Positions 23,948 through 58,298 of a DNA stretch of 64,000 bases are shown in pieces (positions within the stretch are counted from its first letter, which is position 1; every line of letters begins with the position of its first letter). A program made the position numbers and the translations under genes. Source of the stretch: Candidatus Moraniibacteriota bacterium (lineage in GTDB: Bacteria > Patescibacteriota > Minisyncoccia > Moranbacterales > DUUL01); assembly GCA_027008775.1 (NCBI GenBank), contig JALVDV010000010.1, positions 96,529-160,528 of the forward strand, read 5' to 3'. Below the pieces are notes generated by a model. The model was given only the letters and a program-made list of their open reading frames with translations. It ran no database searches and was not told where the DNA came from.

Positions 23948-25006
23948 CTAAAAAATATTTTCTTCCTCCACTTTTTTGTTAACCTCTTTGAGAATTTGTC
24001 TGGCCAGTTTCTTGTTTTCTCGCAGGAATTTTTTGGCCGCTTCTCTTCCCTGACCGAGCTTTTCTTTTTGGTATTGGAACCAAGCGCCGGCTTTTTTAAC
24101 CACCCCAAATTTGGTGGCCAGGTCCAGCAAATCTCCCTCGTAGGAAATTCCTTGATTGTACATAATATCAAATTCAGTATTTTGAAAAGGCGGAGCCACT
24201 TTATTCTTGACCACCTTGGCTTTTACTCGATTACCGATAACCTGATCACCTTTTTTAATTTGGGCGGCGCGACGAACTTCAATCCGAACGGAAGCGTAAA
24301 ATTTAAGAGCGTTTCCACCGGTGGTCGTTTCCGGATTGCCAAACATCACTCCGATTTTCATTCGGACCTGGTTGATAAAAATGACGGTGGCGTTGCTTTT
24401 AGCAATAGCGCTGGTCAGCTTCCGCAAAGCTTGAGACATCAATCTGGCCTGCAAGCCCATATGACTCTGACCCATATCCCCTTCTATTTCCGCTTGGGGA
24501 GTGAGAGCGGCCACCGAATCAACCACCACCACATCAACGGCGCCGGAACGTACCAATGTTTCCACAATTTCCAAAGCCTGTTCACCGGTATCCGGTTGGG
24601 AAATCAATAAGTCATCCACTTTGACGCCCAATTTTTTGGCATAGACCGGGTCAAGAGCGTGTTCAGCGTCAACGAAAGCGGCCACTCCGCCGGCCTTTTG
24701 AGCGTTGGCTACCACATGCAAAGAAAGCGTTGTCTTGCCTGATGATTCCGGCCCGTAAATTTCTATAATTCTACCGCGAGGAATTCCACCAATTCCCAAG
24801 GCCAAATCCAGAGAAGGTGAACCGGTGGAAATGGAGGCGACATCCACTTTCTTGGCATCGCCCAATTTCATAATTGAACCTTCACCGAATTTGCCTTGTA
24901 TTTCTCCCAGAATCTCTTCAACCTTCTTTTTTGTTTCCGGAACTTTTTTGGAACCTCCTTGTTCGGCAGTTTTTTTGCCAACTCTTTGTTTTTTACTTTT
25001 TGCCAT
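23948..25006 (-). CDS. recA: Recombinase RecA with a Lys-rich N-terminal extension
   Basis: The Walker A motif (GPESSGKTT) and RecA core are present. Confidence 0.95.
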
Positions 25007-30173: not shown

Positions 30174-30192
30174 TCATAGTGATGAAACAGTA

Positions 30193-35236: not shown

Positions 35237-35257
35237 TTTTTCTATTTTTATCGGTTT

Positions 35258-36633: not shown

Positions 36634-36649
36634 AAATTTCTCTTAGCCT

Positions 36650-38404
36650 CTACACCACCCCTTTTTTCTTCATAAAGGCCAAGATACCAACGGTGATTAA
36701 GGTAGAGAAGAGAACCAAGAGAACAATGTTGGTGGCCAAACCGGTCTTGGGAGCGGAGCGACGGTAACCAAAGTCAGCCTTGGTGTGTTCGTCTTTTTCT
36801 TTGAGTTTAACAGAGGTTTGGTTGTCCAGTTTACCATCGGGGTCGTAGGTTGGAATTAGATTCTCAACATCTTTAACTACCACCCGATAATGTCCGGAGC
36901 AAAGATTCTTAATCTTGTAACGACCATGTTTGTCAGTGGTGTCACAGTATTTCTTGTTACCGCGAAAAGCGCAGACTTTAACATCAGAAATTCCTTCTTC
37001 AATATCTTCTTGAATACCGTTACCATTGGTGTCATACCAAATATAGTTGCCAATGGAAGATTGACAATCTTCTTCCTCTTCTTTTCTTTCTTCTTTGAGT
37101 TTGACGGTAACCTGATCAGAGTCGGTAATGGTTTTGGAACCAAGCTTGGCGGTAACCGTTACTTTGTTGGTGGTATCTTGGTTGATGACCACTGACTTGG
37201 TACAACTCATAGCTTCGCCAACATTCAAAGAAGTCTGGGGACAGGTGATGGTTCCCAATTGATCATCTTGAACTTGAATGTTGGTTAGTTTAGTGTCGCC
37301 GGTGTTAGTGATACGATAAGTGTAAGTGACTGTTTCTCCTTTTTTTACTTCAGTGGCGGAAGCGCTTTTTTCAACTCTAACGCCGGTGTTTTCTTTTTGA
37401 CAAACACTACTGCAACCATCGCCACTGACAGTGTTGCCGTCATCGCATTCTTCGGAGTCTTGTTTAAGGCCGTCTCCGCATTTACCTCCTTGAACAACTA
37501 CGTTTTTACAGTCACTGGAACAATAGGTACAAGAACTGTTGTAAGCCGGGGTACAAGTTTGGCCGTTGTTAGCGCCTTCATCGCATTGTTCGCCACTTTC
37601 TTTGGTGCCATTACCACAGTTGGGAGAAGGAGAAGTTTCTTTTTGACAAACACTACTACAACCATCGCCACTGACAGTGTTGCCGTCATCGCATTCTTCT
37701 CCGTCTTCCAAAACTCCGTTACCACATTGGGGAGAAGGAGTTTCATTAACTTTCTCCAAAAGCATACAAACGGGCTCAAAGCCGTGTTTGAACTTTACTC
37801 CCTTGGGTCCGGCGTGGACCACTTTGATTTGGCGCAAAGGAGAAGTTATTTGCAGAGCAGAGGAACCATAGTTAACAGCAGTGATTTTACCGGCTTCTTC
37901 CACGCCATCGGGCAGGTCTTCCGTTGTGCCGGAACGAACTCCGTTAAAGTCTATGTAGTACTGTTCGTGAGATTCATCAGCCGGGTTGGCTTGACTGCGA
38001 CCGACATAGCTGTCAAAGGATTCCAGATAAACGTTGTACTTGCCGGCGGGGATGGAGATTCCAGAAACAGTCTTTTCCCTGGGGAAATTGTGACCGTTTA
38101 AAACTCCGCCGTCGGAAACCATAATGTCACCATTGTACTTGATAAGGATATCCCCTTGTTTCTTGGTTTGCAGATGACAAACTCCGGAACAGTGATTGGC
38201 CAGATAAGTGGTGGTTTGGCGAAGGTCTTGGTTGAGAGAAGCAATCTTTTGGTTTTGCGACTGAAGGAGAACAGCGCCGAAAGCCAACAAAACAATCAGC
38301 AATAAAAAGATTCCTCCCACCAAGAGAGGTTTACGCCAAGACCATTGGTAACGAGAAGAACGGCGAGATCTTCTTGGACCACTGCTTTTTTTTCTTTGCA
38401 CCAT
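36650..38404 (-). CDS. Surface protein with Myxococcus-type Cys-rich repeats, a DUF11 domain, an SdrD-B-like domain and a C-terminal sortase-type sorting signal (copy A)
   Basis: An N-terminal TM/signal segment is followed by two CDDGNTVSGDGCSSVC repeats and then an SdrD-B-like domain. The C-terminus carries a sortase-type signal: SAPKTGLAT, a hydrophobic stretch, then KKKGVV. Confidence 0.7.
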   Translation of the reverse strand: MVQRKKSSGPRRSRRSSRYQWSWRKPLLVGGIFLLLIVLLAFGAVLLQSQNQKIASLNQDLRQTTTYLANHCSGVCHLQTKKQGDILIKYNGDIMVSDGGVLNGHNFPREKTVSGISIPAGKYNVYLESFDSYVGRSQANPADESHEQYYIDFNGVRSGTTEDLPDGVEEAGKITAVNYGSSALQITSPLRQIKVVHAGPKGVKFKHGFEPVCMLLEKVNETPSPQCGNGVLEDGEECDDGNTVSGDGCSSVCQKETSPSPNCGNGTKESGEQCDEGANNGQTCTPAYNSSCTYCSSDCKNVVVQGGKCGDGLKQDSEECDDGNTVSGDGCSSVCQKENTGVRVEKSASATEVKKGETVTYTYRITNTGDTKLTNIQVQDDQLGTITCPQTSLNVGEAMSCTKSVVINQDTTNKVTVTAKLGSKTITDSDQVTVKLKEERKEEEEDCQSSIGNYIWYDTNGNGIQEDIEEGISDVKVCAFRGNKKYCDTTDKHGRYKIKNLCSGHYRVVVKDVENLIPTYDPDGKLDNQTSVKLKEKDEHTKADFGYRRSAPKTGLATNIVLLVLFSTLITVGILAFMKKKGVV

Positions 38405-38490
38405 GCTATTTGTTTTTATTTTTTAAGGAAAAGCAAAAAGACAATTCTTTCTTTGCTTAGATTTTAACATAAAAGGGAATTGGGGGCAAT
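36654..38490 (-). repeat. 1.84-kb direct repeat, copy A (gene plus about 90 bp of promoter region)
   Basis: It is near-identical to 58303..60140 in the same orientation. Confidence 0.95.
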
Positions 38491-38568
38491 GGATTCTGGA
38501 AATTTCCAGGGAATATCTTTCTATCAACAAATACACCGAATGCTTACTATCTCCAGGTATAGTTATAC

Positions 38569-41319
38569 TTAACGGCCGCAACATTTTTTATATTTCTTGC
38601 CACTGCCACAAGGGCAAGGGTCGTTACGTCCGATGTTTTTATTTTTATTAAATACCGGCTGTCGGTTTTGATTTTCATTTTCCCTGTTCTCGGCAATATT
38701 TTTTATTTCTTCAGCCGGCAGAACATCAAAACCGCTTGTTTCTTCAGCGCCACTGTAATTGAGATCTTTTAAATTATTTTCCGGCGGGGCTTCAACCGCT
38801 GTTTCCAGCGGAGAAACAAGCTCCACTTTAAAAATAGCCGTGGAAACGGAACGGTTTATATTGGCCAAGAGCGCTTGAAAAGCATTGAAAGCCTCTTTTT
38901 TGTAAGCCACCAAGGGATCTATTTGGGCATAGCCTTGGAAGCCAATACCTTCTCTGATGTGTTCCATATGTTCCAAATGATCCATCCAGAAACTGTCAAT
39001 AGTGCGCAAGTAAATGTTTTTTAAAATAGCTTGGAAATTTTCTTTACCCAATTCCTCTTCCTTCTTTTGGTAGGCCTGAAAGACTCTATTTAACAGAAAG
39101 TCTTCAATCGCCCTTCTTTTGTCTTTCTCGGTCAAATCCTTTTTCATAATTTCCGCCAAACTTTTTTTTGTTTCTTCCTTGTCATCGCCAGTGATGACAT
39201 TCAATTCTTCGGCCAATTCGGAGATATCCCACCGGTCTTCGTCACTGCCGGCGGTTAGCGCTCCAACCAAACCGGCAATGTCTTCTTTGAGCAATTCTTT
39301 GATTTCTTGACTGATATCTTCTTTGCGTAGAATATTTAATCTTTTTTTGTAGATGGTTTCTCGCTGTTTATTCATTACGTCGTCATATTCCAAAACTCTT
39401 TTACGAGCATCAAAGTTAAAACCCTCTATTTTTTTCTGAGCGGACTCAATTGATTTGGAAATCATTTTATTTTCAATGGGTTGGTCTTCCGGAAAGCCAA
39501 ATTTTTCCATCAAACTTTTCATCTTGTCACCGCCGAAGCGACGCATCAGTTCATCCTCCAGAGAAACAAAAAATTGACTGCTACCCGGGTCTCCTTGCCG
39601 ACCGGCGCGACCACGCAACTGTTCGTCAATGCGACGAGCCTCGTGTCGTTCGGAGCCAATGATAGCCAACCCTCCCGCTTCTTTGGCTCGATCGTCCAGT
39701 TTTATATCCGTTCCTCGCCCGGCCATATTGGTGGCGATGGTCACGCTTTTAAATTTACCGGCTTTGGCAATAATTTGCGCTTCTCTTTCATGATTTTTGG
39801 CGTTCAAAACTTCATGAGGAATTCCCTCTTTTCGCAACAGTTCCGACAACTCTTCCGACTTTTCAATGGCAATAGTGCCAACCAGAACCGGTCGTCCTTG
39901 TTGGTGTAACTTTTTGATTTCTTCTATAATGGCGCGAAATTTTCCCGGTTCGTTTTTGTAAACAATGTCACTCTTATCTTCTCTGATAACCGGCTTGTGA
40001 GTGGGGATCTGCAAAACTTCCAGACCATAAACTTTGGCGAACTCTTCCGCCGAGGAAGTGGCCGTTCCGGTCATACCGGACAGCTTATTGTAAAGACGAA
40101 AATAGTTTTGGAAAGTGATAGTGGCTAAGGTGCGTGATTCTTTTTGCACCACCACCCCCTCCTTGGCTTCAATGGCTTGGTGTAGACCTTCGCTGTAACG
40201 ACGCCCGGGCATTAAGCGGCCGGTAAACTCATCAACGATAACGATTTCACCGTCTTTAACAACATAATCTTTGTCACGCTTGAAAAGAATGTGAGCTTTT
40301 AAGGCCTGTTCCAGGTGATGAACGTAAGAAATTTTGTCGGTGGCGTAAATATTGCCAATACCCAACATTTTTTCCACTTCGTCTATTCCTTGCTGGGTCA
40401 AAGAAACACTACGCATCTTTTCATCAACATTGTAATGTTCATTTTCTTTCAGTCGGGGAACGATACTGGCAAATTGCTGATACATTTTGGTTGACTCGTC
40501 ATCGGGAGCGGAGATAATCAGGGGTGTCCGAGCTTCATCAATCAAAATGGAATCAACCTCATCAACGATGGCGTAATTCAATGGTCTTTGCACAACCTGC
40601 TCAGCGCTGGGAGCCATATTGTCCCGCAAATAATCAAAACCAAATTCATTGTTGGTGCCGTAAAGGATATCGCAACGATAAGCCTCGCGACGTTCAATCG
40701 GTTGCAAGTTTTCCATTTCCACTGTCACTTCATCATTGTCAATCTTGTTGGGTTGGTAACGATAAGAAATATCATGATTCAGACAAGCAACCGAGAGCCC
40801 GACAAAATCAAAAACCGCTCCCATCCAATTGGCGTCACGTTTGGAAAGGTAATCATTGACGGTCACAATATGCACTCCTCGTCCCGTTAGAGCATTGAGA
40901 TAAGCGGGGAAAATGGAGGCCAAAGTTTTACCCTCTCCGGTTTTCATTTCGGCTATTTTTCCTTGGTGCAAAGCGATGGCGCCAATCAGCTGGACGTCGT
41001 AAGCGCGCTCCTTAATGACTCGCCAACCGGCTTCTCGCATCAAGGCCAAGGCTTCCGGCAGAATTTCATTGAGAGCCTGATCTATTCTTTGTTGTTCTTT
41101 TTTCCTTTCTTCATCAGAGAGAAGAATTCTTTCTTCGTCGGTCTGATATTTGACAGCTTGAGAAATTTTTTCTTTGAATTCGGCCGTCCTGCGAGGAAAT
41201 TCTTCGTCGGAGAGTTTTTTCATCTCCGGCTCCAACTCGTTTATTTTAGCGACTGTTTTTCTGATTTCTTTCAACTGTTTGGAATTGGCATTGCCAAAGA
41301 TTTTTTCCAGGATTTTCAT
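38569..41319 (-). CDS. secA: Preprotein translocase subunit SecA
   Basis: The SecA DEAD motor and C-terminal Zn finger (CPCGSGKKYKKCCG) are present. The start was trimmed to MKILEKIFG. Confidence 0.93.
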   Translation of the reverse strand: MKILEKIFGNANSKQLKEIRKTVAKINELEPEMKKLSDEEFPRRTAEFKEKISQAVKYQTDEERILLSDEERKKEQQRIDQALNEILPEALALMREAGWRVIKERAYDVQLIGAIALHQGKIAEMKTGEGKTLASIFPAYLNALTGRGVHIVTVNDYLSKRDANWMGAVFDFVGLSVACLNHDISYRYQPNKIDNDEVTVEMENLQPIERREAYRCDILYGTNNEFGFDYLRDNMAPSAEQVVQRPLNYAIVDEVDSILIDEARTPLIISAPDDESTKMYQQFASIVPRLKENEHYNVDEKMRSVSLTQQGIDEVEKMLGIGNIYATDKISYVHHLEQALKAHILFKRDKDYVVKDGEIVIVDEFTGRLMPGRRYSEGLHQAIEAKEGVVVQKESRTLATITFQNYFRLYNKLSGMTGTATSSAEEFAKVYGLEVLQIPTHKPVIREDKSDIVYKNEPGKFRAIIEEIKKLHQQGRPVLVGTIAIEKSEELSELLRKEGIPHEVLNAKNHEREAQIIAKAGKFKSVTIATNMAGRGTDIKLDDRAKEAGGLAIIGSERHEARRIDEQLRGRAGRQGDPGSSQFFVSLEDELMRRFGGDKMKSLMEKFGFPEDQPIENKMISKSIESAQKKIEGFNFDARKRVLEYDDVMNKQRETIYKKRLNILRKEDISQEIKELLKEDIAGLVGALTAGSDEDRWDISELAEELNVITGDDKEETKKSLAEIMKKDLTEKDKRRAIEDFLLNRVFQAYQKKEEELGKENFQAILKNIYLRTIDSFWMDHLEHMEHIREGIGFQGYAQIDPLVAYKKEAFNAFQALLANINRSVSTAIFKVELVSPLETAVEAPPENNLKDLNYSGAEETSGFDVLPAEEIKNIAENRENENQNRQPVFNKNKNIGRNDPCPCGSGKKYKKCCGR

Positions 41320-41503
41320 TATATTTAAAAGTTGTTGTATTAAAAGATTTGGCTCGCTTTGCCATAAAGCCATTCTATTCCATTTTGGATGACAAGGCAA
41401 GCGGAGATTGGTTTTTTGGTAAATTTGAAAGCCGGTTTGGTTTCTTGACTTTTATGGGATTGGAATATTAGAAAGCGATGGTAAAAGATGGATGAAATAA
41501 AAG

Positions 41504-42583
41504 TTAAATATATTTTTCATCTTTCTTTTTCAGTTCTTTGATTATTTCTTTTACCTCCTGTGCTCTGGCTTTGGGGCAAACCAAAAGAGCGTTGTCGGTA
41601 TCAACAATAACCAGATCGTCAACTCCGATGGTGGCGATTATTTTGCCCCGGCGACCGTAAATCAAACTGCCGGAAGTGTCCAGGTTGAGACATTCTCCCT
41701 TGGTTAAATTACGCCTTTCGTCGGCCTGGGATAACAAATTTTCGTGCAGTGTGTCCCAAGTGCCGATGTCCTTCCAACCAAATTCACCTTTGATAATGAG
41801 CATATCTTTGGGATCAATTTTTTCCGTGATGGCGTAGTCAATAGAAATTTTTTCCATTTGACCGTATAATTCCCTGATTTTCTCCGGACGATTTTTTCCC
41901 TGCAATTCTTCTTTAATGGCTTGTAGAATTGTAAACGTTTGAGGTGTGTATTTTTCGTAAGCTTCCAGAAATTTACGCGGCGTCCACATATAGTAATTGG
42001 CGTGCCAAAGGTAGTTGCCCGATTTTAGATATTTTTGAGCGGTTTTAAAATCCGGTTTTTCGGTGTGTCCCAAAAATTCATAAAATTTCACGCCGTTTTT
42101 TTCCTCCAAGAGTTGACCGATCTTGGTGTAGCCCAGGGCGGTGTTTGGTTCAGTGGGAAAAATGGCGATGTCCAGCAGTTTGCCGGTTTGCTTAATCACC
42201 TCTTCGGCAGTGGCGATACTTTTCAGAAAATCGTCCACTCTGGCGATGTAGTGGTCGGAAGGAATGAAAGCCATCGGTTCGTCGGGATCAAGAAGGCTCA
42301 GTTTTAAAGCGTTAAAACCCATAGCCGGAGCGGTATCACGTCGTTCCGGTTCAATGATGATATTTTCCAAGGGAAAATCAGGCAGAATTTCTTTGACTTT
42401 TTCCGCGAGAGAAGCGGTGGTGGCGATAAATTTTTTGTCCGCCGGGTAATCTTTAAATCTGTCTAAAGTTTCTTCCAACATAGTTTTTTCGGAAGTGAGG
42501 CGACAGAATTGCTTGGGAATATCGGAACGACTCATCGGCCAAAGACGGGACCCGGAGCCACCGGCCAAAATAACTATTTTCAT
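41504..42583 (-). CDS. Mannose-1-phosphate guanylyltransferase-like NTP-transferase
   Basis: The N-terminal motif ILAGGSGSRLWP is present. Confidence 0.8.
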   Translation of the reverse strand: MKIVILAGGSGSRLWPMSRSDIPKQFCRLTSEKTMLEETLDRFKDYPADKKFIATTASLAEKVKEILPDFPLENIIIEPERRDTAPAMGFNALKLSLLDPDEPMAFIPSDHYIARVDDFLKSIATAEEVIKQTGKLLDIAIFPTEPNTALGYTKIGQLLEEKNGVKFYEFLGHTEKPDFKTAQKYLKSGNYLWHANYYMWTPRKFLEAYEKYTPQTFTILQAIKEELQGKNRPEKIRELYGQMEKISIDYAITEKIDPKDMLIIKGEFGWKDIGTWDTLHENLLSQADERRNLTKGECLNLDTSGSLIYGRRGKIIATIGVDDLVIVDTDNALLVCPKARAQEVKEIIKELKKKDEKYI

Positions 42584-42745
42584 AAATTTTCTTTAGTTTT
42601 TAAGTCTTTAAAAACCTGTTTTAATTTAGCACCAAAGAAATAGCTTGTCTAGCAAAATCGCCGGAAGATCAACTTTCGGAGGCGGTTGAAAAAGAAAACA
42701 GCCATTGCCCGGTTAGAGACAATGGCTGCGGAGAGGCCAGGAGAA

Positions 42746-43345
42746 TTATTTAATCTTTCTTCTCCCGACCAGGCCCAGGCCGGCGAGGCCTGAGCCGAAA
42801 AGGAGGATGGTCGCCGGCTCGGGCACCGGGGCTGGCGGGTTATCCACGGAAATCTCCGTTAGCTGGAGATTCCCGCACAAACCTCCGATGGCGACGACCA
42901 TGTCGTCGCGATCCCAGTCACTCCACCTGGAGGGCAGGTCCTCCAGGTGGATACTCCAGATTCCCGGAGCCGGCTGGTTCCAGAAAACGTGCTGGATTCC
43001 CTGGTCTTCGGGGGAATTCAACCGGGGATCGCTGTACCAGTCGTACAGCTCCCCAGAGGGGCTGTATGTTTGGAAATGGATTCCGAAAGACTGGAATCCA
43101 TCCCAATCATTGGCGGAGAAGGTCTGCCAGCTCCCGGGCTCGTCGCCCGCCTGGAGGACGGGCAACTGGTTTTGGGGATCGTCGGTTTTGTAGAAAAACA
43201 GTGACGATTCCCAGGATGCTTCTTCCTGGACGTCAACGACAAAAAGGCTGCCGTCCAGTTTGAAGATTGGGATTACCTGCGTGGCATTGGCCACACAGGT
43301 GAAAAAGAATAGAAAAAATAAAAATAAAAGTGGGATTTTTTTCAT
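42746..43345 (-). CDS. Secreted protein with a C-terminal PEP-CTERM sorting signal, strongly GC-shifted
   Basis: The signal peptide MKKIPLLFLFFLFFFTCVANA is AT-rich. The C-terminus reads VPEPATILLFGSGLAGLGLVGRRKIK, which is PEP, then a TM segment, then an RRK basic tail. Body codons end mostly in G or C. Confidence 0.75.
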   Translation of the reverse strand: MKKIPLLFLFFLFFFTCVANATQVIPIFKLDGSLFVVDVQEEASWESSLFFYKTDDPQNQLPVLQAGDEPGSWQTFSANDWDGFQSFGIHFQTYSPSGELYDWYSDPRLNSPEDQGIQHVFWNQPAPGIWSIHLEDLPSRWSDWDRDDMVVAIGGLCGNLQLTEISVDNPPAPVPEPATILLFGSGLAGLGLVGRRKIK

Positions 43346-43495
43346 TTTTTACCTCCCATTTCTGTGTCTCCCTGCCCCCAGGGAGACAATAAAAAGAACT
43401 AGCGACAATGGGGCTATTGCCACTTTTACTTTAAAAAATCTATCCCACCTCCTTTCATTCATTTTATTTAACGGACTTAATTAGTCCGACTTGGC

Positions 43496-43525
43496 ATTGT
43501 AAAACAGAAGTGGGTGACTGTCAAG
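43496..43525 (-). promoter_or_regulatory. Exact consensus promoter TTGACA-N17-TACAAT for the PEP-CTERM gene
   Basis: The exact hexamers with a 17-nt spacer read on the minus strand. They lie directly after a terminator hairpin at 43528..43557. Confidence 0.6.
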
Positions 43526-43527
43526 CA

Positions 43528-43557
43528 AACGCCGGGGGTTTGACTCCCGGCGTTTTA
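43528..43557. terminator. Terminator hairpin after the S74-domain gene
   Basis: The stem GCCGGG/CCCGGC is flanked by A/T runs. Confidence 0.55.
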
Positions 43558-43593
43558 GACATTGTAAAGTTGTAAGCAAGATGACTTTTCCCC

Positions 43594-44622
43594 TTATTTA
43601 TTTTCCAATTCAGCCACTTTAGCCTGCAAATCACGGATTTCCTTTTGTTGCTCTTTGACTGCTTCAATCAAAACTCCAACCAGACCGTCATAGTCAACTG
43701 TTTTGTAGCCATTGGGGCTCTCATTAACCAAGCTGGGGAAGTCTTTTTCAATTTCTTGAGCGATTACTCCGATATTTTTCTGGTCATTGCTTTTCAATTT
43801 ATACTCCACTCCGCGAATGTTCTCCAATCTCTGTAAAGCATTTTCCACTGTTTTGATGTCTTTTTTTAATCTAACATCAGAGCCCCGACGGAAATTGGCT
43901 GCCCAGACATCAGCAAATTGTCCTTTACCTTTACCAACTACCAAGCCGGCATTTCTGCTTCTGGATCCATCCACTCTAATCCCGATGGATCCGGCCAGGC
44001 TGGGAGCGTTGGGAGAAACATCAAAAGCGTAAATCCAGGGACCCCGGGTGTTATCAACTTTTTGATATTCACTGTTGTTAGTGACAGTGCCAATTCTAAA
44101 TTTGCCCTGAGAGACGAAAGTTTTACCAAAAATGTTAGCGTACTGGTTGTGACCGCGACCAACTACCAAAGCGCTATCCGGTCCTTGATTGCCAACGCGG
44201 ATACCGATGCTTCCGTTCATATTGCTCACGCCCGGCACTTGATTGATGGCATAAATCCAGGGTCCTCTCATCGCATCTATTCGGTTGTACCCGGCGGTGC
44301 TGTTAACCATTCCTATTTGCAGATACGGACCGGAGGCCTGGGCTCCTTGAGCATACAATCTGACAGCGCCGTTGGCAAAAATATTACCATTAGCCAACAA
44401 GGCTGTGCTTCGGTTACCGGCAACGTTAACGGCCAAACCGCCGTCTTTAGCTTGCCAAATTGGGCCGGTGTTTAAAGGCGCTTTCAAGTTACTGGCCGGG
44501 GGATTGGAAGATGGCTCCGTCCAATTGGTTGATTGGGCACTGGTTGATTGGACATAAACCAAGGCTGCCAAAGCAACAAGTCCCGTCGCAACCACCATTT
44601 TGAATTTACTATTCATTTTCAT
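43594..44622 (-). CDS. Secreted tail-fibre-like protein with a C-terminal peptidase S74 intramolecular-chaperone domain
   Basis: It has a signal peptide and two internal roughly 100-aa repeats. The C-terminus reads SDVRLKKDI…GVEYK…IGVIAQEIEKDFPSLV…VDYDGLVGVLIEAVKEQQKEIRDL, which matches the auto-cleaving chaperone of phage tail spikes. Confidence 0.7.
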   Translation of the reverse strand: MKMNSKFKMVVATGLVALAALVYVQSTSAQSTNWTEPSSNPPASNLKAPLNTGPIWQAKDGGLAVNVAGNRSTALLANGNIFANGAVRLYAQGAQASGPYLQIGMVNSTAGYNRIDAMRGPWIYAINQVPGVSNMNGSIGIRVGNQGPDSALVVGRGHNQYANIFGKTFVSQGKFRIGTVTNNSEYQKVDNTRGPWIYAFDVSPNAPSLAGSIGIRVDGSRSRNAGLVVGKGKGQFADVWAANFRRGSDVRLKKDIKTVENALQRLENIRGVEYKLKSNDQKNIGVIAQEIEKDFPSLVNESPNGYKTVDYDGLVGVLIEAVKEQQKEIRDLQAKVAELENK

Positions 44623-44686
44623 TTTGCTTTTTTATTAATTAATTTGTTATATTTAAAAAATTTTAAACCTTATTTGTTGATTACCA

Positions 44687-44974
44687 CTATTCTCCCATTA
44701 CCTGGGAAAGCTGATCTCTATTCATTTGAGTAACAGCCCCGTCCTGTCTGTTCATTATCTCCGAGAGTTTGTTGGCGTTGATTTTGGCCGGTTTAATATC
44801 GGAGGAATTTGATTTACTGCCCGAACCACCCAAGATGGCTGTTTTGGTAATGTCAAAATTAACTCCACTGGCGTTAATTAAATAAACCAAAAAGCCGGCC
44901 AGAATGAAAGATACCACCACCACAAAAGCTATGACCCTTACTTTCTCGGCTGATTTTTCCTTTTGTCTGTTCAT
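44687..44974 (-). CDS. Small single-TM protein
   Basis: It has an N-terminal TM anchor. Confidence 0.4.
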   Translation of the reverse strand: MNRQKEKSAEKVRVIAFVVVVSFILAGFLVYLINASGVNFDITKTAILGGSGSKSNSSDIKPAKINANKLSEIMNRQDGAVTQMNRDQLSQVMGE

Positions 44975-45019
44975 TTATTTGTTTGAAATTTTATTTGTTA
45001 GAATTATCTACCAGGCCCC

Positions 45020-45874
45020 CTAGTTAACTTTAACCGGTAAACTCGTTTCCAAATTATGATAGTTGTATTTGACCTGGACATTTCCGTTACCCTTATTTTT
45101 GGCTTGAATAATCTTGTTAACCTCTCCCGCCAAATCAAAGGCTGAAGAATTTTCCGTCCAGGTGGCCAAACCGGTGACATCTAAACCGGAACAACTGTTT
45201 TTAGAAGCGGAAAGACAAGCTTTGAGGTTTTTATTATCGCCCTCACTCATCGTTAAGCTTGTGAGAGGATTGTTGTTGCCACAAGTATTTTCACAGATAA
45301 CCAAATTTTTGCCAAAAGAATCTATTCCACAGGCTTTGGCCTGACCGAAACTTACCCAACCAAGCTCATTAGACCAGGCGTAACCGGACAGTTTCCCGTG
45401 AGAATCCAGATGGACTCCGTAGTCTTGCCCGTTTGTAACTTTTCCCCTCATCTTTATCCAACCTCTCCAACCACCAGAATTGTTTATTTTTTCCTCTTGA
45501 GCGATGCCCACAATTCTGGCCCAACCGGTCAAATTGTTACCTTCTTTTCTTACCCCTCCTTTATCTCCATTGGGCGCGTTGCAATTGGCTTGGTAAGCGC
45601 TTCCACAATGCTCTTGGGGACTAAAGTCCACCCAGCCCAGATTGGAACTCCAGGCGTAACCGGTAATATTACCGTCACCGCTTGGTATTTTTAAATTATA
45701 AGAAATACTGCCGTTTTGGTTGGCATTGGTGGCGCTAATCCAACCAAAATTAGTGTTGCTGCCAGCCCAAAACCAACCGACAATATTATTGTCATTAGGG
45801 GCGGCTTTGACTAGAAAGGTAATTCCAATAATTGCCAAACTGAGCAGAGAACCGTAGATTATTTTTTTGAGCAT
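45020..45874 (-). CDS. Secreted protein with tandem G(Y/W)AWS…LGW(V/I)xF repeats
   Basis: A signal peptide is followed by at least three aromatic GW repeats and a Cys-rich C-terminal part. Confidence 0.5.
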   Translation of the reverse strand: MLKKIIYGSLLSLAIIGITFLVKAAPNDNNIVGWFWAGSNTNFGWISATNANQNGSISYNLKIPSGDGNITGYAWSSNLGWVDFSPQEHCGSAYQANCNAPNGDKGGVRKEGNNLTGWARIVGIAQEEKINNSGGWRGWIKMRGKVTNGQDYGVHLDSHGKLSGYAWSNELGWVSFGQAKACGIDSFGKNLVICENTCGNNNPLTSLTMSEGDNKNLKACLSASKNSCSGLDVTGLATWTENSSAFDLAGEVNKIIQAKNKGNGNVQVKYNYHNLETSLPVKVN

Positions 45875-46024
45875 ATTTTTGTTTTGAGATTTATTTTAAA
45901 AACCGTGATTGCTTTTGTCTCTATTTTAAGTCATAAAAAAAATCCTGTCAAAGTTTTCAGTGTTTCCTTGTGTTTGGATTATAGCATAACTTCTAATTCC
46001 TAACAACTTTAGTCAACCGGAAAA

Positions 46025-46465
46025 TTAAAATAATCGGGAGGATTCAGCGTCCAAAGCTTTGTTAACCAAACTATCGGCCTCTTTATTTTTTTCTCTGGGG
46101 ATGTGTTGAAAGTTCACTTTTTGAAAATCAAGCGTGAGATTCCAAATTTTGATGAAGTATTTTTGAATCTTTTCGTCTTTCAATTTGTATTGATGGTTAA
46201 GTTGTTTAACTGCCAATTCCGAATCCAGAAAACAATGAATAGTGAAATTTTTCGCAACTTGTTTGCCCAGATGTTTTTTTGCTTCCTGCAGGGCGTAAAT
46301 CAGAGCTTCATATTCGGCCTCATTGTTTGTGCGTTGTGAGCCGATGTAACGATGAAAGGTAATTTTTGTTTGATTTGGTAAAATAATCACCCCGCCAATC
46401 GCCGCCGGTCCGGGATTACCGCGAGAGCCGCCGTCGGTGTGAATTGTTACATTTTTTTCAGTCAT
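46025..46465 (-). CDS. rnhA: Ribonuclease HI
   Basis: The RNase H motifs TDGGSRGNPGPAAIG and NNEAEYEALIYAL are present. Confidence 0.88.
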   Translation of the reverse strand: MTEKNVTIHTDGGSRGNPGPAAIGGVIILPNQTKITFHRYIGSQRTNNEAEYEALIYALQEAKKHLGKQVAKNFTIHCFLDSELAVKQLNHQYKLKDEKIQKYFIKIWNLTLDFQKVNFQHIPREKNKEADSLVNKALDAESSRLF

Positions 46466-46556
46466 TGTTTTTACAGAATGATTTTTCAAAATTAATTCAT
46501 TGATTTTTCGCAAAATAAATTCTTCAAAATTGGAGATGGGAAAAATTTAAACAGAT

Positions 46557-47612
46557 TTACTCTCCTTTCAATCTGCCAACTATGTTGCCCAGCTCTTCCG
46601 GTGAATAATAATCAATGATTATTTTGCCATTTTCTTTGATTCCTCTGATTTTTACTTTGGTGTTGAAGAGTTCTGACAGTTCATTTTCAATATTTAAAAG
46701 GTCCGGATCAACATTTTTTTGAATGCGGAAAGTTTTTTTAAGTTTAACATTTTTAGCCACACCTTCCACTTCTCTGACATTTAAATCGTCCTTTAAGATT
46801 GACCGGAAAAGATCCATTTGTTTTTTTTCGTCACTGAGAGCCAAAATGGTACGCGCGTGCCCTTCGGAAATGACCCCTTCGGCCAAGGCTTGCTTGATTT
46901 TGGTCGGTAATTTTAAAAGACGGAGCGTGTTAGCCACGGCGCTGCGACTCTTGCCGACCTTTTGCGCGATTTCTTCTTGAGTCAAACCGAATTTTTCTTT
47001 CATCACTTGATAAGCCTCGGCTTCTTCAACAGGATTAAGGTTATGCCTTTGAATATTTTCTATTAAGGCCCATTCGGCTTTGTTTTCTTCGCTGGCCTCT
47101 TTGGTGACCACCGGCACGGTTTTTAAACCAGCCAGTTTGGCCGCTTCTAACCTTCTTTCGCCGGCAATGAGTTCAAAGCCTCCCTGCGAACGGTGGGTGA
47201 CAACCAGCGGTTGGATGATACCGTGTAGAGCGATGGAATCGGCCAATTCTTGCAATTTGGCTTTGTCAAAATTTTGTCGGGGTTGGTAGGGATTGGGGAA
47301 AATTTCTTCCACACCGACTTCCATAATACTTTTCAATCTGATTTTGGCGGAACCGCTGAGACTCGTTTTTGTTTGCTTTTCTTTTTGGGCGGATTTGGCA
47401 GAGGAAGTTTTGTTGGTAGCAGTCTTTTTTTGATTGTCTGTCTTTTGAAATGAGTTGGCGCCAAAATAGTTAACTTCGCCAACGGCGCCGGTTCCGGCAA
47501 AGGCTTTGCTGGTGCCGGCAGTATTTTGCTTTGTTCTTGCTTTGTTGTTTGTTTTGTTTTTGCGAGGAATTAAAGAAGACAAACCTCGTCCCAGACCTCC
47601 CGGTTTTGCCAT
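46557..47612 (-). CDS. parB: Chromosome partitioning protein ParB with a low-complexity N-terminal extension
   Basis: The ParB box (GERRLEAAKLAGL) and HTH are present. Confidence 0.9.
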   Translation of the reverse strand: MAKPGGLGRGLSSLIPRKNKTNNKARTKQNTAGTSKAFAGTGAVGEVNYFGANSFQKTDNQKKTATNKTSSAKSAQKEKQTKTSLSGSAKIRLKSIMEVGVEEIFPNPYQPRQNFDKAKLQELADSIALHGIIQPLVVTHRSQGGFELIAGERRLEAAKLAGLKTVPVVTKEASEENKAEWALIENIQRHNLNPVEEAEAYQVMKEKFGLTQEEIAQKVGKSRSAVANTLRLLKLPTKIKQALAEGVISEGHARTILALSDEKKQMDLFRSILKDDLNVREVEGVAKNVKLKKTFRIQKNVDPDLLNIENELSELFNTKVKIRGIKENGKIIIDYYSPEELGNIVGRLKGE

Positions 47613-47632
47613 AGTTTTAAAATTAAAAATGA

Positions 47633-48400
47633 TTACTGTTTACTTCTTTGGATGACTTCTTTGGCCAGTTGACGATAAGCTCGCGCCCCACTGTTGAAAG
47701 TGTCAAAATTGAGAATTGATTTGCCGAAACTGGGTGCTTCCGCCAAACGAACAGTACGAGGAATAACCGCCGAAAAAACTTTGTCGGGAAAATGTCGTCT
47801 AACTTCCTTAACCACCTGCTTGGCCAGCTTGTTCCGTTTGTCGTACATCGTCATCAATATTCCACCCAGGCGCAAAGAGGGTTGCAGATTTTGTTGAACC
47901 AAATCTATAGTGTTCAAAAGTTGACCCAAGCCTTCCAAAGCAAAGTATTCGGTTTGAACGGGAATAATCACTTCGTCGGCGGCCACCAGACCGTTGATGG
48001 TTAACAGACCCAAGCTGGGCGGAGAATCTATAATGATGAAGTCATAGAGATGTTTGACTGTTTCCAAAACTTTTTGTAGGCGATATTCCCTGTTTTCCAG
48101 TTCGGCCAATTCCACGGTGGCGCCGGCCAAATCCTGGTTGGCGGGCAAGATATGCTGATTTTCCGTTTCCGTTTGCAGGATCAAATCCAAGGGGTGAGCG
48201 TTCCCCAAAAGCGCTTCGTAAAGTCCGGCAGACAGATTGGGTACATCAACACCTAATCCACTGGAAGCGTTGGCTTGAGGATCAAGGTCAACTAAGAGCA
48301 CTTTTTGGCCTTCATCGGCCAAGTAGCTGGCCAAGTTGATGGCCGTGGTGGTTTTGCCCACTCCTCCTTTTTGATTGATTAGGGAAATGGTTTTGCCCAT
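47633..48400 (-). CDS. parA: Chromosome partitioning ATPase ParA/Soj
   Basis: The deviant Walker A motif KGGVGKTT is present. Confidence 0.92.
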
Positions 48401-48555
48401 AAAAATGACGACACTAAAAAAATTTAGAAAATTTTGTTCCGGGTTTCATTCTGCTTGTCACATTATACTAAAAAACAAAACACCGGGCAAACGAATCGGT
48501 TTTAGATATGAAAAAAGCGGAAGCTTCGGCTTCCGCTGAGAAACCATTTTTCCCC

Positions 48556-49032
48556 TCACCTCCTTGGTGGAGGTGGAGGTGGAGATGGAGATGGAGGGTG
48601 TCGCCTCATCGGTTGCCCCTGGTGATAATAAGGGGCGGAGCGCTGAGACGCCGATGCCGGCGGTGGAGGGGGCACCGCCTGCACCTGTGATGGACGAGGT
48701 GTTGGCGTTGGAGGAGGGGGTGAGATATACCTCGCCCGTTGCCCCTGCTGATAATAAGAGGCGGACCGGCGAGGTGTTGGCGCCGGAGGGGGCGCCGGGC
48801 GGGGGAAGCGCTCTTGGAGACAGACACGTTGTCCCCCTAGGTACACGCAAACCCGGCCGAAACGCCGGGTTGCGTACGCCCCGTGATTTTTCCCCCACAG
48901 CTGAAGGCTGTGGGAAGAAAATTTGAATCCCTTCCCCCGGAACTCCCAAAAAATACTTGGGAGTTCCCACTGGGCCAGAACCGGCCCAGTGGAAAAAATG
49001 AAAAAAATAAAAAATAAAAAAATTTTTTTCAT
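48556..49032 (-). CDS. Secreted proline-rich repeat protein, GC-shifted
   Basis: A strong SD (GAAGGAGGT) precedes the ATG. The signal peptide MKKIFLFFIFFIFSTGPVLAQ is AT-rich. The body is a Pro-rich tandem repeat of the form RSAxYYxQGQ…PPPP. Confidence 0.6.
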   Translation of the reverse strand: MKKIFLFFIFFIFSTGPVLAQWELPSIFWEFRGKGFKFSSHSLQLWGKNHGAYATRRFGRVCVYLGGQRVCLQERFPRPAPPPAPTPRRSASYYQQGQRARYISPPPPTPTPRPSQVQAVPPPPPASASQRSAPYYHQGQPMRRHPPSPSPPPPPPRR

Positions 49033-49101
49033 ACTACCTCCTTCGCCCCGATTACCGGGGCTCTAAATTTTTTTAATTTTATAAGGTACTCATCTGCCTT
49101 G

Positions 49102-49130
49102 ATTGTACAACATTTTTGGAAAAATGTCAA
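49102..49130 (-). promoter_or_regulatory. Exact consensus promoter TTGACA-N17-TACAAT for the Pro-rich protein gene
   Basis: Read on the minus strand, the 5'UTR then contains a GCCCCGG-taat-CGGGGC hairpin immediately before the SD. Confidence 0.6.
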
Positions 49131-49278
49131 TGGTTTAAAGAACTCGTCAGGCGCGATAAGGTGGCTTACGTTGGCTGAGCAACCCTCCCCGACCGGGGTT
49201 TTTGCTCGGCTTTTTCAGCTAGAAAAATACGTTCTAAGACTGGAAAATTCCAGCGCATTAGAAATGAAGTTGATAAAA

Positions 49279-49312
49279 ACAGCCCCGCTCGCGCGAGCGG
49301 GGCTGTTTTGCT
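49279..49312 (-). terminator. Terminator after rplL
   Basis: The hairpin AAAACAGCCCCGCTCGC-GCGAGCGGGGCTGTTTT is present. Confidence 0.8.
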
Positions 49313-49333
49313 GTGACGACAAATAAATTAGTT

Positions 49334-49783
49334 TTATTTCAATTCCACAGTAGCGCCGGCTTCTTCCAATTGTTTTTTCATCTCTTCCGCTTCTTCTTTG
49401 GCCACTTTTTCTTTGATAACTTTAGGCGCTCCGTCCACAATATCTTTGGCTTCTTTTAAGCCAAGTCCAGTGATGGTCTTGACAGCCTTGATAACATTTA
49501 TTTTAGAATCTCCGGCGGAAACCAATTCCACGTCAAATTCTGATTTTTCTTCTCCGGCGCCACCCTCTTCTCCAGCGCCACCGGCAACGGCTCCGGCAAC
49601 AGCCACGGGAGCGGCGGCGGATACTCCGAATTTTTCCTCCAAGATTTTGACCAGTTCCGCCAAATCCAAAACACTCATTTTTTCAATTTCCTCCACCAGT
49701 TTTTGGAATTTTTCGGGAACCTCAACTTCTTTTTTCTCTTCCTTAGTTTCTGCGGAAGTCTCTTTTTTCTTGTCTTCAGACAT
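49334..49783 (-). CDS. rplL: 50S ribosomal protein L7/L12
   Basis: An Ala/Gly-rich hinge and the L12 C-terminal domain are present. Confidence 0.92.
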
Positions 49784-49845
49784 AATCTTTTTTTACTGAT
49801 TAAATTATTTATAAATTATTTACTTAACAAATTTGATTGATTGGT

Positions 49846-50367
49846 TTAGGCTTCTTTCTTATCCTTGATGGCCTGTAAAACATAAACCAGATTTCGCAAA
49901 TTGCCGGAAAGGGTATTGACTAAGCCGGACACCGGCGACTTCAAACTGCCCACCACTTTGGCCAAAAGCTCTTCCTTGCTTGGCAACTTGGCCAGAGCAA
50001 CGGTTTCCGACTGAGTAAGAGGCTTCTTTTCCAGTATTCCGGCCAAAATTTTTAAATTCTCGTTATCTTTGGCAAATTTATTGATTATTTTGGGAGCGGA
50101 AACTTCATCTTCTCCGCCGTAAACAAAAGCCAGTTGCCCTTCCATTTCTCTAACATTCAGATCAATTTTCTGGTCATCTAAAGCCACTTGCGCAACCGTT
50201 TTCTTTAGGACCTTCATATTGATTCCGTGCTCTCGCAATTCCCGACGTAAAGCGTTGATATCAGCCACGGACATTCCTTTGAAATCAACGATAACTGTTG
50301 TTTTGCTATTGATTAAATTTTCTATAAATTGCTTGGCCAGTTCTTTTTTTTGCTCTCGGGTTAACAT
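49846..50367 (-). CDS. rplJ: 50S ribosomal protein L10
   Basis: It starts from MLTREQKKELAKQF and has the L10 fold. Confidence 0.88.
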   Translation of the reverse strand: MLTREQKKELAKQFIENLINSKTTVIVDFKGMSVADINALRRELREHGINMKVLKKTVAQVALDDQKIDLNVREMEGQLAFVYGGEDEVSAPKIINKFAKDNENLKILAGILEKKPLTQSETVALAKLPSKEELLAKVVGSLKSPVSGLVNTLSGNLRNLVYVLQAIKDKKEA

Positions 50368-50597
50368 ATTTTTAGTTGAATTCGTTAAAAGATGGTTGAA
50401 TAGTTTGCGCAAAATAAAAAATCCGCCAACGGCAGACCAAAGACAAAACAATAATTTTACTTTCTCCTCGTTAGGACTTACGGTTGCCTAAGGTCTACGG
50501 ATTTTCTATTCGGTTGTGCTTGTTATTCTAGCAGAGAAAAAAATATTGTCAAGGTTTGAGAATATTTTTCGGGAGGTAGCCGACTAGAGGTACCCGG
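50368..50597 (-). promoter_or_regulatory. Candidate L10 (rplJ) leader 5'UTR
   Basis: A roughly 230-nt structured untranslated region lies upstream of rplJ. This is the position of the L10-L12 autoregulatory leader in many bacteria. Confidence 0.3.
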
Positions 50598-51248: not shown

Positions 51249-51256
51249 TTATTTTA

Positions 51257-51285
51257 TTGACATTTAGTTGTTTATTTGTTACAAT
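51257..51285 (+). promoter_or_regulatory. Exact consensus promoter TTGACA-N17-TACAAT for rpmB
   Basis: The exact hexamers lie about 70 nt upstream of the rpmB ATG. Confidence 0.6.
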
Positions 51286-51357
51286 TCCGCTGTTACTTTG
51301 TGAAGTTTACAATACTTTACCCTGTTTGACAAATTTGTAATAAATAAATTCAAAGTT

Positions 51358-52337: not shown

Positions 52338-52350
52338 TTGTCGGGAAATT

Positions 52351-53763: not shown

Positions 53764-53876
53764 ATTGATGTAAATTAATTGCCGATTAGTAATTTTATTT
53801 GTCTCTGAATATTTTAAAACTAACCCAGTTCCAAGAAAAAAGCAACCTATTTTTCAAAGCCGGAATTCGTGTTAGG

Positions 53877-58236: not shown

Positions 58237-58298
58237 TGATTTTTTTAATTTTTTATTTGTTTAGATAAATAAGGCACCAAACAAAATCTTCTTACCCC

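What the first reader, a model, noticed from the sequence alone, without database searches (positions are those of the whole stretch)
36654..38490. A 1.84-kb near-identical direct repeat (second copy at 58303..60140) brackets a 20-kb segment
The two copies are about 99% identical and lie in the same orientation. Each carries a full 584-aa surface-protein gene plus about 90 bp of upstream region. The protein differs by one D/N change, there are a few synonymous SNPs, and the non-coding 5' part is more diverged. This points to a recent duplication or ongoing gene conversion. The intervening 20 kb (secA … 1080-aa protein) could be excised or amplified by homologous recombination between the copies.
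Basis: seen in the sequence. Interest (0 to 1): 0.7.

Follow-up and report, generated by a model that had tools for sequence, protein, structure and literature searches.

The report
Duplicated adhesin gene homogenised by conversion
A small-genome candidate-phyla (Patescibacteria) bacterium carries two copies, 21.6 kb apart, of a promoter-plus-adhesin-like gene cassette that recombination between the copies keeps almost identical; this is a clean but ordinary case of concerted evolution, and the essential genes between the copies argue against the segment being excisable.

Summary
The repeat is real: 36634-38494 and 58284-60144 are direct copies, 99.2% identical over 1862 columns. The 15 differences all lie at the edges, and 1573 bp (36654-38226) are identical (P about 7e-13 if differences were spread evenly). 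Each copy runs from a promoter-like -35 box to about 16 bp past the stop codon of a 584-aa SdrD-like protein with an LPXTG-like (APKTG) C-terminal signal.

Independent assemblies break exactly one k-mer from the outermost diagnostic SNPs and contain all four junctions, so the repeat sits in two genomic contexts and is not an assembly duplication. A strain about 3% diverged has both 3' contexts. Its gene is 96.7% identical to the window's, while the window's two copies are 100% identical in the core. Strains also differ in where identity ends. This points to an old duplication homogenised by gene conversion (recA is in the window), not a recent duplication.

The intervening 20 kb carries secA, rplJ, rplL, parAB and truB, so deletion should be lethal. 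Two contigs from other samples join secA to the gene to the 1080-aa gene, the junction expected from a circle or tandem duplication. Assembler path choice explains them equally well. Interest is low to moderate.

The parts
36634..38494 (-). Repeat copy 1 (promoter-like site, 5' UTR, 584-aa gene, about 16 bp of 3' tail). It lies between secA (upstream) and a Sm_multidrug_ex gene whose ATG at 36633 abuts the end of homology.
58284..60144 (-). Repeat copy 2. It lies between a low-GC island (upstream) and the 1080-aa protein gene (downstream).
36650..38404 (-). CDS of copy 1, 584 aa. Domains: N-terminal transmembrane helix, uncharacterised beta domain, 3 cysteine-rich DUF4215 repeats, DUF11/DUF7507, SdrD_B, then C-terminal APKTG + hydrophobic stretch + KKK tail. 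Carries D60.
58299..60053 (-). CDS of copy 2, 584 aa, carrying N60. The open frame continues upstream to a TTG at 60152, but the ATG at 60053 matches copy 1.
36654..38226 (-). Core of 1573 bp that is 100% identical to 58303-59875. This is the tract homogenised by gene conversion.
   Evidence: P(0 of 15 differences fall here) = 7e-13
38461..38489 (-). Promoter-like site of copy 1, TTGCCC-17-(TG)TAAAAT. Homology between the copies begins at its -35 hexamer.
60111..60139 (-). Promoter-like site of copy 2, TTGCCC-17-(TG)TACAAT.
37390..37699 (-). Two intragenic 64-bp modules (37390-37453 and 37636-37699; in copy 2, 59039-59102 and 59285-59348), 98% identical, encoding DUF4215 repeats 3 and 1. They share strain-specific substitutions, which indicates concerted evolution within the gene.
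38495..58283 (-). Intervening 19.8 kb: secA, ManC-like, PEP-CTERM-like protein, Peptidase_S74 protein, RNase H, parB, parA, Pro-rich secreted protein, rplL, rplJ, M50 protease, rpmB (called in relatives), truB, pepA (M17), GDPD (+ strand), 1080-aa protein.
54994..58236 (-). 1080-aa membrane/surface protein immediately downstream of copy 2. It is homologous to the large proteins that sit next to homologues of the 584-aa gene in distant relatives.
23948..25006 (-). recA, the recombinase needed for the proposed gene conversion. A RecO domain gene lies at 28275-29015.

Best explanation
The chromosome of this Patescibacteria bacterium (nearest named RecA hits are Candidatus Moranbacteria) carries two dispersed, same-orientation copies of one expression cassette. 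The cassette is a sigma-70-like promoter, a 5' UTR and the gene for a 584-aa adhesin-like surface protein with an LPXTG-like sorting signal. The duplication is older than the divergence of the strains sampled. RecA-dependent, non-reciprocal homologous recombination (gene conversion) between the copies repeatedly overwrites one with the other. The interior is therefore identical, while the outermost roughly 180 bp at the 5' end and 20 bp at the 3' end, which conversion tracts reach less often, keep accumulated differences. Shown here: the repeat; the clustering of differences at the edges; two contexts at each end in independent assemblies; paralogues more alike than orthologues; strain differences in where identity ends; recA in the window. 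Inferred: the RecA mechanism; that both promoters work; that the protein is sortase-anchored and adhesive; and that selection keeps two copies, either for dosage or for two regulatory contexts (one after secA, one in front of its conserved 1080-aa partner).
For: Repeat and distribution of differences.

Breaks at exact k-mer offsets in assemblies 100% identical to the window. The MEGAHIT k141 contigs of ERZ27262687 end or start exactly 141 nt past the outermost diagnostic SNPs: the middle-segment contig L184 ends at 38086, the island-side contig L019 ends at 59735, and the Sm_multidrug_ex-side contig L014 starts at 36794. The Logan k31 contig L016 starts at 36683. All four junctions are present and no empty-site junction appears.

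All five contigs carrying Sm_multidrug_ex start inside the last 40-160 bp of the repeat.

The roughly 3%-diverged strain (GCA_026992875.1 / scaffold_3367) has both gene->1080-aa and gene->Sm_multidrug_ex junctions. Its gene core is 96.7% identical to the window's, against 100% between the window's own copies.

The gene->Sm_multidrug_ex junction exists as two haplotypes. One carries copy-2 states at three sites within 8 bp, and it is seen in three independent assemblies.

The two 64-bp intragenic modules co-vary between strains at 3 sites.

recA and recO are in the window.

The pattern matches the tuf model, in which conversion starts anywhere and proceeds in either direction, bounded by the gene ends (PMC5485169), and the definition of concerted evolution (PMC6053082).

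Protein nature: Pfam SdrD_B 3.7e-17, DUF4215, DUF7507/DUF11. The C-terminal [AS]PxTG + hydrophobic + basic tail is conserved in homologues. Foldseek top hits are SdrD, UafA and the pilins BcpA and EbpB. A sortase gene lies next to the homologous gene pair in a relative.
Against: No reads were available, so the phase across the 1573-bp identical core is unverified. Only the source contig (162,315 bp) spans both copies. The same assembly graph also fits a chromosome with one copy (island-gene-Sm_multidrug_ex) plus a circle, or a tandem array.

Two contigs from other samples (L001, L002) run secA->gene->1080-aa, which the simple linear model does not predict unless the assembler chose that path arbitrarily.

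In the diverged strain the two copies were not recovered as separate sequences, so 'paralogues more alike than orthologues' rests on the window's pair against one collapsed orthologue.

The LPXTG anchor model TIGR01167 did not hit, and no sortase gene is in the window.
Confidence: 0.78

Rival explanations
1. The duplication is recent and there has been no conversion: the copies are near-identical simply because they have had little time to diverge.
For: Overall identity is 99.2%. No more distant genome could be found to date the event.
Against: All 15 differences lie in the outer 15% of the alignment and none in the central 1573 bp (P about 7e-13). The upstream 82 bp is only 91% identical. Both 3' contexts exist in a strain whose flanking genes are 92-99% identical to the window, and in at least 5 assemblies. 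The orthologue is 3.3% diverged while the paralogues are 0% diverged in the core.
Confidence: 0.05
2. The 21.6-kb unit (middle segment plus one repeat) also exists, or mainly exists, as a tandem duplication or amplification, or as an excised circle, formed by reciprocal recombination between the copies. The window's linear path island-gene-segment-gene-Sm_multidrug_ex is then only one traversal of the assembly graph.
For: L001 (2326 bp, sample SAMN10217878) and L002 (scaffold_3367, 22,485 bp, SAMN10217877) both read secA->gene->1080-aa, which is the predicted novel junction. L002 is a cyclic permutation of the unit: it starts at rplJ and ends at M50, which are adjacent in the window. Direct repeats of this length are classic substrates for RecA-dependent duplication (own knowledge, work of Roth and Andersson).
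Against: The ends of scaffold_3367 are the two ends of an IS inserted in the M50-rplJ spacer with a 5-6 bp target duplication, so it is not a closed isolated cycle. The corresponding metaSPAdes contigs overlap by exactly 127 bp at the 5' edge of the repeat, which marks a graph branch, so the join is a path choice. The segment holds secA, rplJ and rplL and shows no parS site or DnaA-box cluster, so a circle would not replicate and its loss would be lethal. In L001 the switch from copy-1 to copy-2 states lies in a 20-bp window at the very edge of homology, where a low-k chimeric join is also plausible.
Confidence: 0.12
3. Assembly artefact: only one copy exists per genome and the assembler duplicated it, or it merged two strains that carry the gene at different sites.
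For: Short-read assemblers cannot phase a 1573-bp exact repeat. Only one contig spans both copies.
Against: The edges of the two copies differ and each edge variant is joined to its own unique flank in independent MEGAHIT and Logan assemblies. The middle-segment contig runs 318 nt into the gene at one end, and the island-side contig does the same, with no empty-site branch. A single copy cannot give four junctions without also giving empty-site junctions.
Confidence: 0.03

Closest known systems
tufA/tufB duplicate genes of Salmonella and E. coli, the model of RecA-dependent gene conversion between dispersed paralogues (PMC5485169)
   Same: Two full-length copies in one chromosome, tens of kb or more apart, are kept near-identical. 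Conversion is bounded by the ends of homology, so divergence collects at the edges. Paralogues are more alike than orthologues.
   Different: The gene here is a fast-evolving surface protein, not a core translation factor. The copies are in direct orientation (the tuf genes are inverted), so reciprocal exchange would duplicate or delete the interval instead of inverting it. The homologous unit includes the promoter. Conversion is inferred here, not measured.
Concerted evolution of rRNA operons and other long-lived paralogues in prokaryotes (PMC8022953, PMC6053082)
   Same: Homogenisation of repeated genes within a genome, with the signature of paralogues more alike than orthologues.
   Different: There are only two copies. 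The time scale demonstrated here is strain-level (about 3% divergence), not hundreds of millions of years.
Sdr/MSCRAMM LPXTG-anchored adhesins and Gram-positive pilins (SdrD, UafA, BcpA)
   Same: An SdrD B-like domain (Pfam 3.7e-17), strings of Ig-like beta domains, a C-terminal motif + hydrophobic stretch + basic tail, and Foldseek top hits to SdrD.
   Different: The motif is APKTG rather than LPXTG. The N-terminal domain and the DUF4215 cysteine-rich repeats are not found in Sdr proteins. There is no serine-aspartate repeat. The host is a Patescibacterium. No sortase gene was seen in this window.
Direct-repeat-bounded duplication/amplification units (rrn- or IS-flanked segments; own knowledge)
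   Same: 1.86-kb direct repeats bracket 20 kb, and the junction predicted for a duplication (secA->gene->1080-aa) appears in two other assemblies.
   Different: There is no evidence for copy-number change. The junction contigs can be explained by assembler path choice.

Membership tests
Concerted evolution by gene conversion between paralogues | Two paralogous copies in the same genome, each in its own context | tested here: met
   All four junctions are seen in independent assemblies, each with its own edge SNPs.
Concerted evolution by gene conversion between paralogues | Paralogues more similar to each other than to orthologues in a lineage that already had the duplication | tested here: met
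   Core identity is 100% within the window and 96.7% to the L002 strain. That strain has both gene->1080-aa and gene->Sm_multidrug_ex junctions. Caveat: its two copies are not resolved separately.
Concerted evolution by gene conversion between paralogues | Mosaic or edge-biased distribution of differences, with tract ends that vary between strains | tested here: met
   0 of 15 differences fall in the central 1573 bp. There are two 3'-junction haplotypes across 5 assemblies.
Concerted evolution by gene conversion between paralogues | Homologous recombination machinery present | tested here: met
   RecA at 23948-25006 (4.8e-139). RecO domains at 28275-29015 (gene table).
Concerted evolution by gene conversion between paralogues | Conversion events observed directly, with recA dependence | not testable with these tools
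   This needs an experiment or time-series long reads.
Sortase-anchored LPXTG surface proteins (MSCRAMM-like) | C-terminal sorting signal: LPXTG-type motif, hydrophobic segment, positively charged tail | tested here: inconclusive
   The C-terminus reads APKTG-LATNIVLLVLFSTLITVGILAF-MKKKGVV. The pattern [AS]PxTG + tail is conserved in 14 homologues. NCBIfam gave no LPXTG-anchor hit at E <= 0.01.
Sortase-anchored LPXTG surface proteins (MSCRAMM-like) | A sortase encoded in the same genome | not tested
   None is in the 64-kb window. A sortase gene sits next to the homologous pair in relative L180. The rest of this genome is not available.
Sortase-anchored LPXTG surface proteins (MSCRAMM-like) | Ig-like or SdrD-B-type stalk domains | tested here: met
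   Pfam SdrD_B and DUF7507/DUF11. These domains have pLDDT of about 90 in the AF2 model. Foldseek top hit is SdrD at E 5.5e-11.
Composite transposon or IS-bounded mobile segment | The flanking repeats encode a transposase and have terminal inverted repeats | tested here: not met
   The repeat encodes only the surface protein. No inverted repeats were found in 30000-64000.
Integrative or excisable genomic island bounded by att direct repeats | An integrase or recombinase, accessory cargo, and short att repeats | tested here: not met
   No integrase in 38495-58283. The cargo is housekeeping (secA, rplJL, parAB, truB). GC content matches the rest of the genome.

The most novel reading that the evidence does not exclude
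The 21.6-kb unit (one adhesin cassette plus secA...parAB...rplJL...1080-aa) is a recombination-defined module. In natural populations it switches between one chromosomal copy, tandem amplification and possibly a circular form, using the adhesin cassette as its recombination site. The secA->gene->1080-aa contigs from two other samples would then be real junctions, not assembler choices.
Probability: 0.06. Interest if true: 0.65.

Novelty: new member of a known kind. Interest (0 to 1): 0.3.

Why it matters
Patescibacteria have very small genomes with few paralogues, so keeping two identical copies of a 1.86-kb adhesin-like cassette suggests selection on the dosage or regulation of a protein likely to be used for attachment. 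The population data show that intragenomic homologous recombination is active in these organisms, both between the two copies and between 64-bp modules inside the gene. In practice, this repeat breaks every short-read assembly of the species at the same place and can produce cyclically permuted contigs that look like circles. Anyone binning or screening for circular elements in these genomes should know this.

Tried and rejected
1. Exact look-ups of both window proteins found nothing. The cluster look-up showed they sit on a 162,315-bp contig that the tools do not return.

2. Scans of genome contigs and metagenome contigs with the protein returned only distant DUF4215-repeat proteins from Myxococcota and other phyla, with no close relative. 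I could therefore not date the duplication with more distant genomes or find an ancestral single-copy locus.

3. I considered scaffold_3367 (22,485 bp, roughly the unit length) as a closed circle. I rejected this because its ends are IS ends with a target-site duplication and do not overlap each other.

4. I looked for replication or partition signals in the middle segment that could support an episome. There is no parS match beyond chance and no DnaA-box cluster.

5. I suspected a structured RNA in the GC-rich stretch 48520-48950. Rfam found nothing and both strands fold well, but a 158-aa ORF with a signal peptide and proline-rich repeats explains the GC content.

6. I considered a two-strain mixture, each strain with one copy at a different site. 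I rejected this because no empty-site junctions appear and the contigs run into the repeat without branching.

7. I considered mobile-element explanations (composite transposon, integrative island). I rejected them for lack of a transposase or integrase and of inverted repeats.

Full report
**1. Observation**

A self-comparison of the window finds one long repeat. 36634-38494 matches 58284-60144 in direct orientation: 1862 columns, 13 mismatches, two 1-base gaps, 99.19%. No third copy or fragment is present in the 64 kb.

Each copy holds a 584-aa ORF on the minus strand, at 36650-38404 and 58299-60053. The coding differences are D60N, three synonymous changes in codons 25, 35 and 52, and a synonymous change in the last codon.

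The new point is the distribution of differences. A base-by-base alignment shows none between 36654 and 38226 (1573 bp). Four SNPs lie in the first 178 nt of the gene, six differences in the 82 bp upstream, and five around the stop codon. If 15 differences fell at random, the chance that none lands in the central 84.5% is 7e-13.

**2. Anatomy of the repeated unit**

Homology starts exactly at the -35 hexamer of a promoter-like site. This reads TTGCCC-17-TAAAAT in copy 1 and TTGCCC-17-TACAAT in copy 2, both with an extended TG. Homology fades about 16 bp after the stop codon. In copy 1 the ATG of the next gene (36633) follows immediately. The unit is thus a complete expression cassette with nothing else in it: no transposase and no inverted repeats.

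The protein has these parts, in order:
- an N-terminal hydrophobic helix;
- a beta-rich domain of about 140 aa with no Pfam match;
- three cysteine-rich DUF4215 / myxo_disulf repeats;
- a DUF7507/DUF11 domain;
- an SdrD B-like domain;
- a C-terminus reading APKTG, then 22 hydrophobic residues, then KKKGVV.

The [AS]PxTG + hydrophobic + basic tail pattern is conserved in all 14 homologues inspected. An AlphaFold model (mean pLDDT 68.6, about 90 in the two C-terminal beta domains) matches S. aureus SdrD, UafA and the Gram-positive pilins BcpA and EbpB best. I read it as a sortase-type anchored adhesin-like protein. This is an inference: the LPXTG-anchor model did not hit and no sortase gene is in the window.

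**3. Surroundings**

Nearly all genes in the region are on the minus strand. In the direction of transcription the order is:
- a low-GC island (GC 0.30 against about 0.41), with a DpnI-like enzyme, DpnD/PcfM, a 329-aa protein, DUF4238 and a 145-aa protein;
- copy 2;
- the 1080-aa protein, GDPD (+ strand), pepA (M17), truB, M50 protease, rplJ, rplL, a Pro-rich secreted protein, parA, parB, RNase H, two unknowns, a Peptidase_S74 protein, a PEP-CTERM-like protein, ManC-like, secA;
- copy 1;
- Sm_multidrug_ex, tpiA, fba, and beyond them recO and recA.

The nearest named RecA relatives (about 78% identity) are Candidatus Moranbacteria / Patescibacteria.

**4. Is the repeat real or an assembly duplication?**

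The window comes from a 162,315-bp contig. That contig is the only one spanning both copies. Independent assemblies nevertheless give a sharp picture.

In the MEGAHIT (k=141) assembly ERZ27262687, which is 100% identical to the window:
- the middle-segment contig (L184, 20,358 bp) ends at 38086, which is 38227-141;
- the island-side contig (L019) ends at 59735, which is 59876-141;
- the contig on the Sm_multidrug_ex side (L014, 133 kb) starts at 36794, which is 36653+141.

A Logan k=31 contig (L016) starts at 36683, which is 36653+30. Every contig stops one k-mer beyond the outermost SNP that separates the copies. This is the behaviour of a true two-copy repeat collapsed in a de Bruijn graph.

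All four junctions are present, each joined to its own edge variants: island->gene, secA->gene, gene->1080-aa and gene->Sm_multidrug_ex. No empty-site junction (secA->Sm_multidrug_ex or island->1080-aa) interrupts the contigs. All five contigs that carry Sm_multidrug_ex, from five assemblies, begin inside the last 40-160 bp of the repeat. A single copy, or two strains each with one copy at a different site, cannot produce this pattern.

**5. Age and mechanism**

A second strain (ENA scaffold_3367 = NCBI GCA_026992875.1; L002-L004, L015) differs from the window by 1-7% in the genes between the copies. It has both gene->1080-aa and gene->Sm_multidrug_ex junctions. Its gene core is 96.7% identical to the window's (49 substitutions), while the window's two copies have none in the core. 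Paralogues more alike than orthologues is the definition of concerted evolution (PMC6053082).

The gene->Sm_multidrug_ex junction exists as two haplotypes:
- GGTGTAGAGGCTAAGAG in the window, L014 and L016;
- GGTTTAGGGGGTAAGAG in L015, L017 and L018.

The second carries the copy-2 state at three sites within 8 bp. The point where the copies stop being identical therefore differs between strains.

Inside the gene, the two 64-bp modules that encode DUF4215 repeats 1 and 3 share three substitutions. These read AGT/GGC/AGT in both modules of the window and AGC/GGT/AAT in both modules of the other strain. Homogenisation thus also acts at this smaller scale.

An identical interior with diverged edges is what the Salmonella tuf model predicts. 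There, conversion starts anywhere and proceeds in either direction, bounded by the ends of homology (PMC5485169). recA and recO are in the window. I conclude that this is an old duplication kept uniform by gene conversion, not a recent duplication.

**6. Excision or amplification?**

The interval contains secA, rplJ, rplL, truB and parAB. From general knowledge of bacterial essential genes, deletion by recombination between the copies should be lethal. I found no integrase, no parS site beyond chance and no DnaA-box cluster, so an excised circle would not be maintained.

Two contigs from other samples do carry the junction that a circle or tandem duplication would create:
- L001 (2326 bp) has the secA flank, then the gene, then the 1080-aa flank.
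- L002 (22,485 bp) is a cyclic permutation of the unit, running rplJ ... secA, gene, 1080-aa ... M50.

I do not take these as proof, for three reasons. First, the ends of L002 are the two ends of an IS element inserted in the M50-rplJ spacer, with a 5-6 bp target duplication, so it is not a closed cycle. Second, the matching metaSPAdes contigs overlap by exactly 127 bp at the 5' edge of the repeat, which marks a graph branch. Third, in L001 the switch from copy-1 to copy-2 states falls in a 20-bp window at the very edge of homology. That could be a conversion reaching the boundary or a low-k chimeric join. Only read depth or long reads can settle this.

**7. Which copy is ancestral?**

In two distant relatives a homologue of the gene lies directly next to a homologue of the 1080-aa protein (E 2e-102 and 5e-35). 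In one of them a sortase and type II/IV secretion ATPase genes are nearby. The pairing with the large protein is therefore conserved, although the gene order is reversed. Copy 2 sits in that conserved kind of context. This is weak evidence that copy 1, behind secA, is the derived copy.

The island upstream of copy 2 was found only in the window's own sample or samples, so it looks strain-specific.

**8. Verdict**

- gene conversion is supported;
- recent duplication is not supported;
- viable excision is unlikely;
- amplification remains open.

This is a new example of a well-known process, concerted evolution of dispersed paralogues. It is notable mainly because it occurs in a minimal-genome Patescibacterium, involves a probable attachment protein together with its promoter, and is documented across several natural populations. 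It also has a practical consequence: it breaks short-read assemblies and can mimic circular contigs.

Noticed in passing
window 60145-64000 (continues in L019 1-5700): Low-GC island (GC 0.30 against about 0.41 elsewhere) directly upstream of copy 2. It holds a 145-aa protein, DUF4238, a 329-aa protein with a weak HEPN/AbiU2-like hit, DpnD/PcfM and a DpnI-like restriction enzyme; L019 adds an ankyrin-repeat protein. Exact matches to its proteins occur only in the window's own sample or samples, so it looks like a strain-specific acquired defence island.
   Followed up: partly
window 48520-48950 (ORF 48556-49032, minus strand): A 430-bp stretch with GC of about 0.65 between rplL and parA. It has no Pfam or Rfam match, and both strands fold far better than shuffles (z -7.2 and -9.8). 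A 158-aa ORF with a signal-peptide-like N-terminus and proline-rich repeats explains the GC content. Gene callers skip it in some relatives.
   Followed up: partly
L003 9559-9683 and L004 1-124 (insertion point at window about 50552-50557): In the roughly 97% strain an IS element sits in the M50-rplJ spacer. Its transposase C-terminus reads YNFHRPHQALDYMTPIEF (rve-type), it has imperfect terminal inverted repeats ending ...CTTGGACAC, and there is a 5-6 bp target duplication (AAACC). It breaks that strain's assemblies.
   Followed up: partly
L002 1231-1933 (corresponds to window 46513-46557): The other strain carries a Polbeta nucleotidyltransferase plus NTase_sub_bind gene pair (MNT/HEPN-like toxin-antitoxin) between parB and RNase H. 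The pair is absent from the window.
   Followed up: no
window 42746-43345 (minus strand): A 199-aa protein with a PEP-CTERM-like C-terminus (Pfam 6.4e-07; TIGR02595), unexpected in a Patescibacterium. It is only 76.7% identical in DNA between the two strains, while its neighbours are 92-99% identical, so it is a hypervariable surface protein. Next to it is a Peptidase_S74 (endosialidase chaperone) domain protein.
   Followed up: no
window 26142-36633 compared with L015; window 38569-53763 compared with L002: Divergence between the two strains is strongly mosaic. The Sm_multidrug_ex, tpiA, fba and iPGM genes are 99.9-100% identical, while pepA is 92.6%, truB 93.7% and ManC 94.4% identical. This suggests frequent recombination between strains, or a bin that mixes strains.
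   Followed up: no
window 49276-49309; also 1802-1837 and 22590-22626: Perfect or near-perfect palindromes of 34-37 bp. The first lies just downstream of rplL and is probably a terminator hairpin.
   Followed up: no
window 38494-38511: An 18-bp hairpin (CCCTGGAAATTTCCAGGG on the minus strand) lies immediately upstream of the 5' boundary of copy 1, between secA and the promoter-like site. No T-run follows it on the gene strand, and its role is unknown.
   Followed up: no
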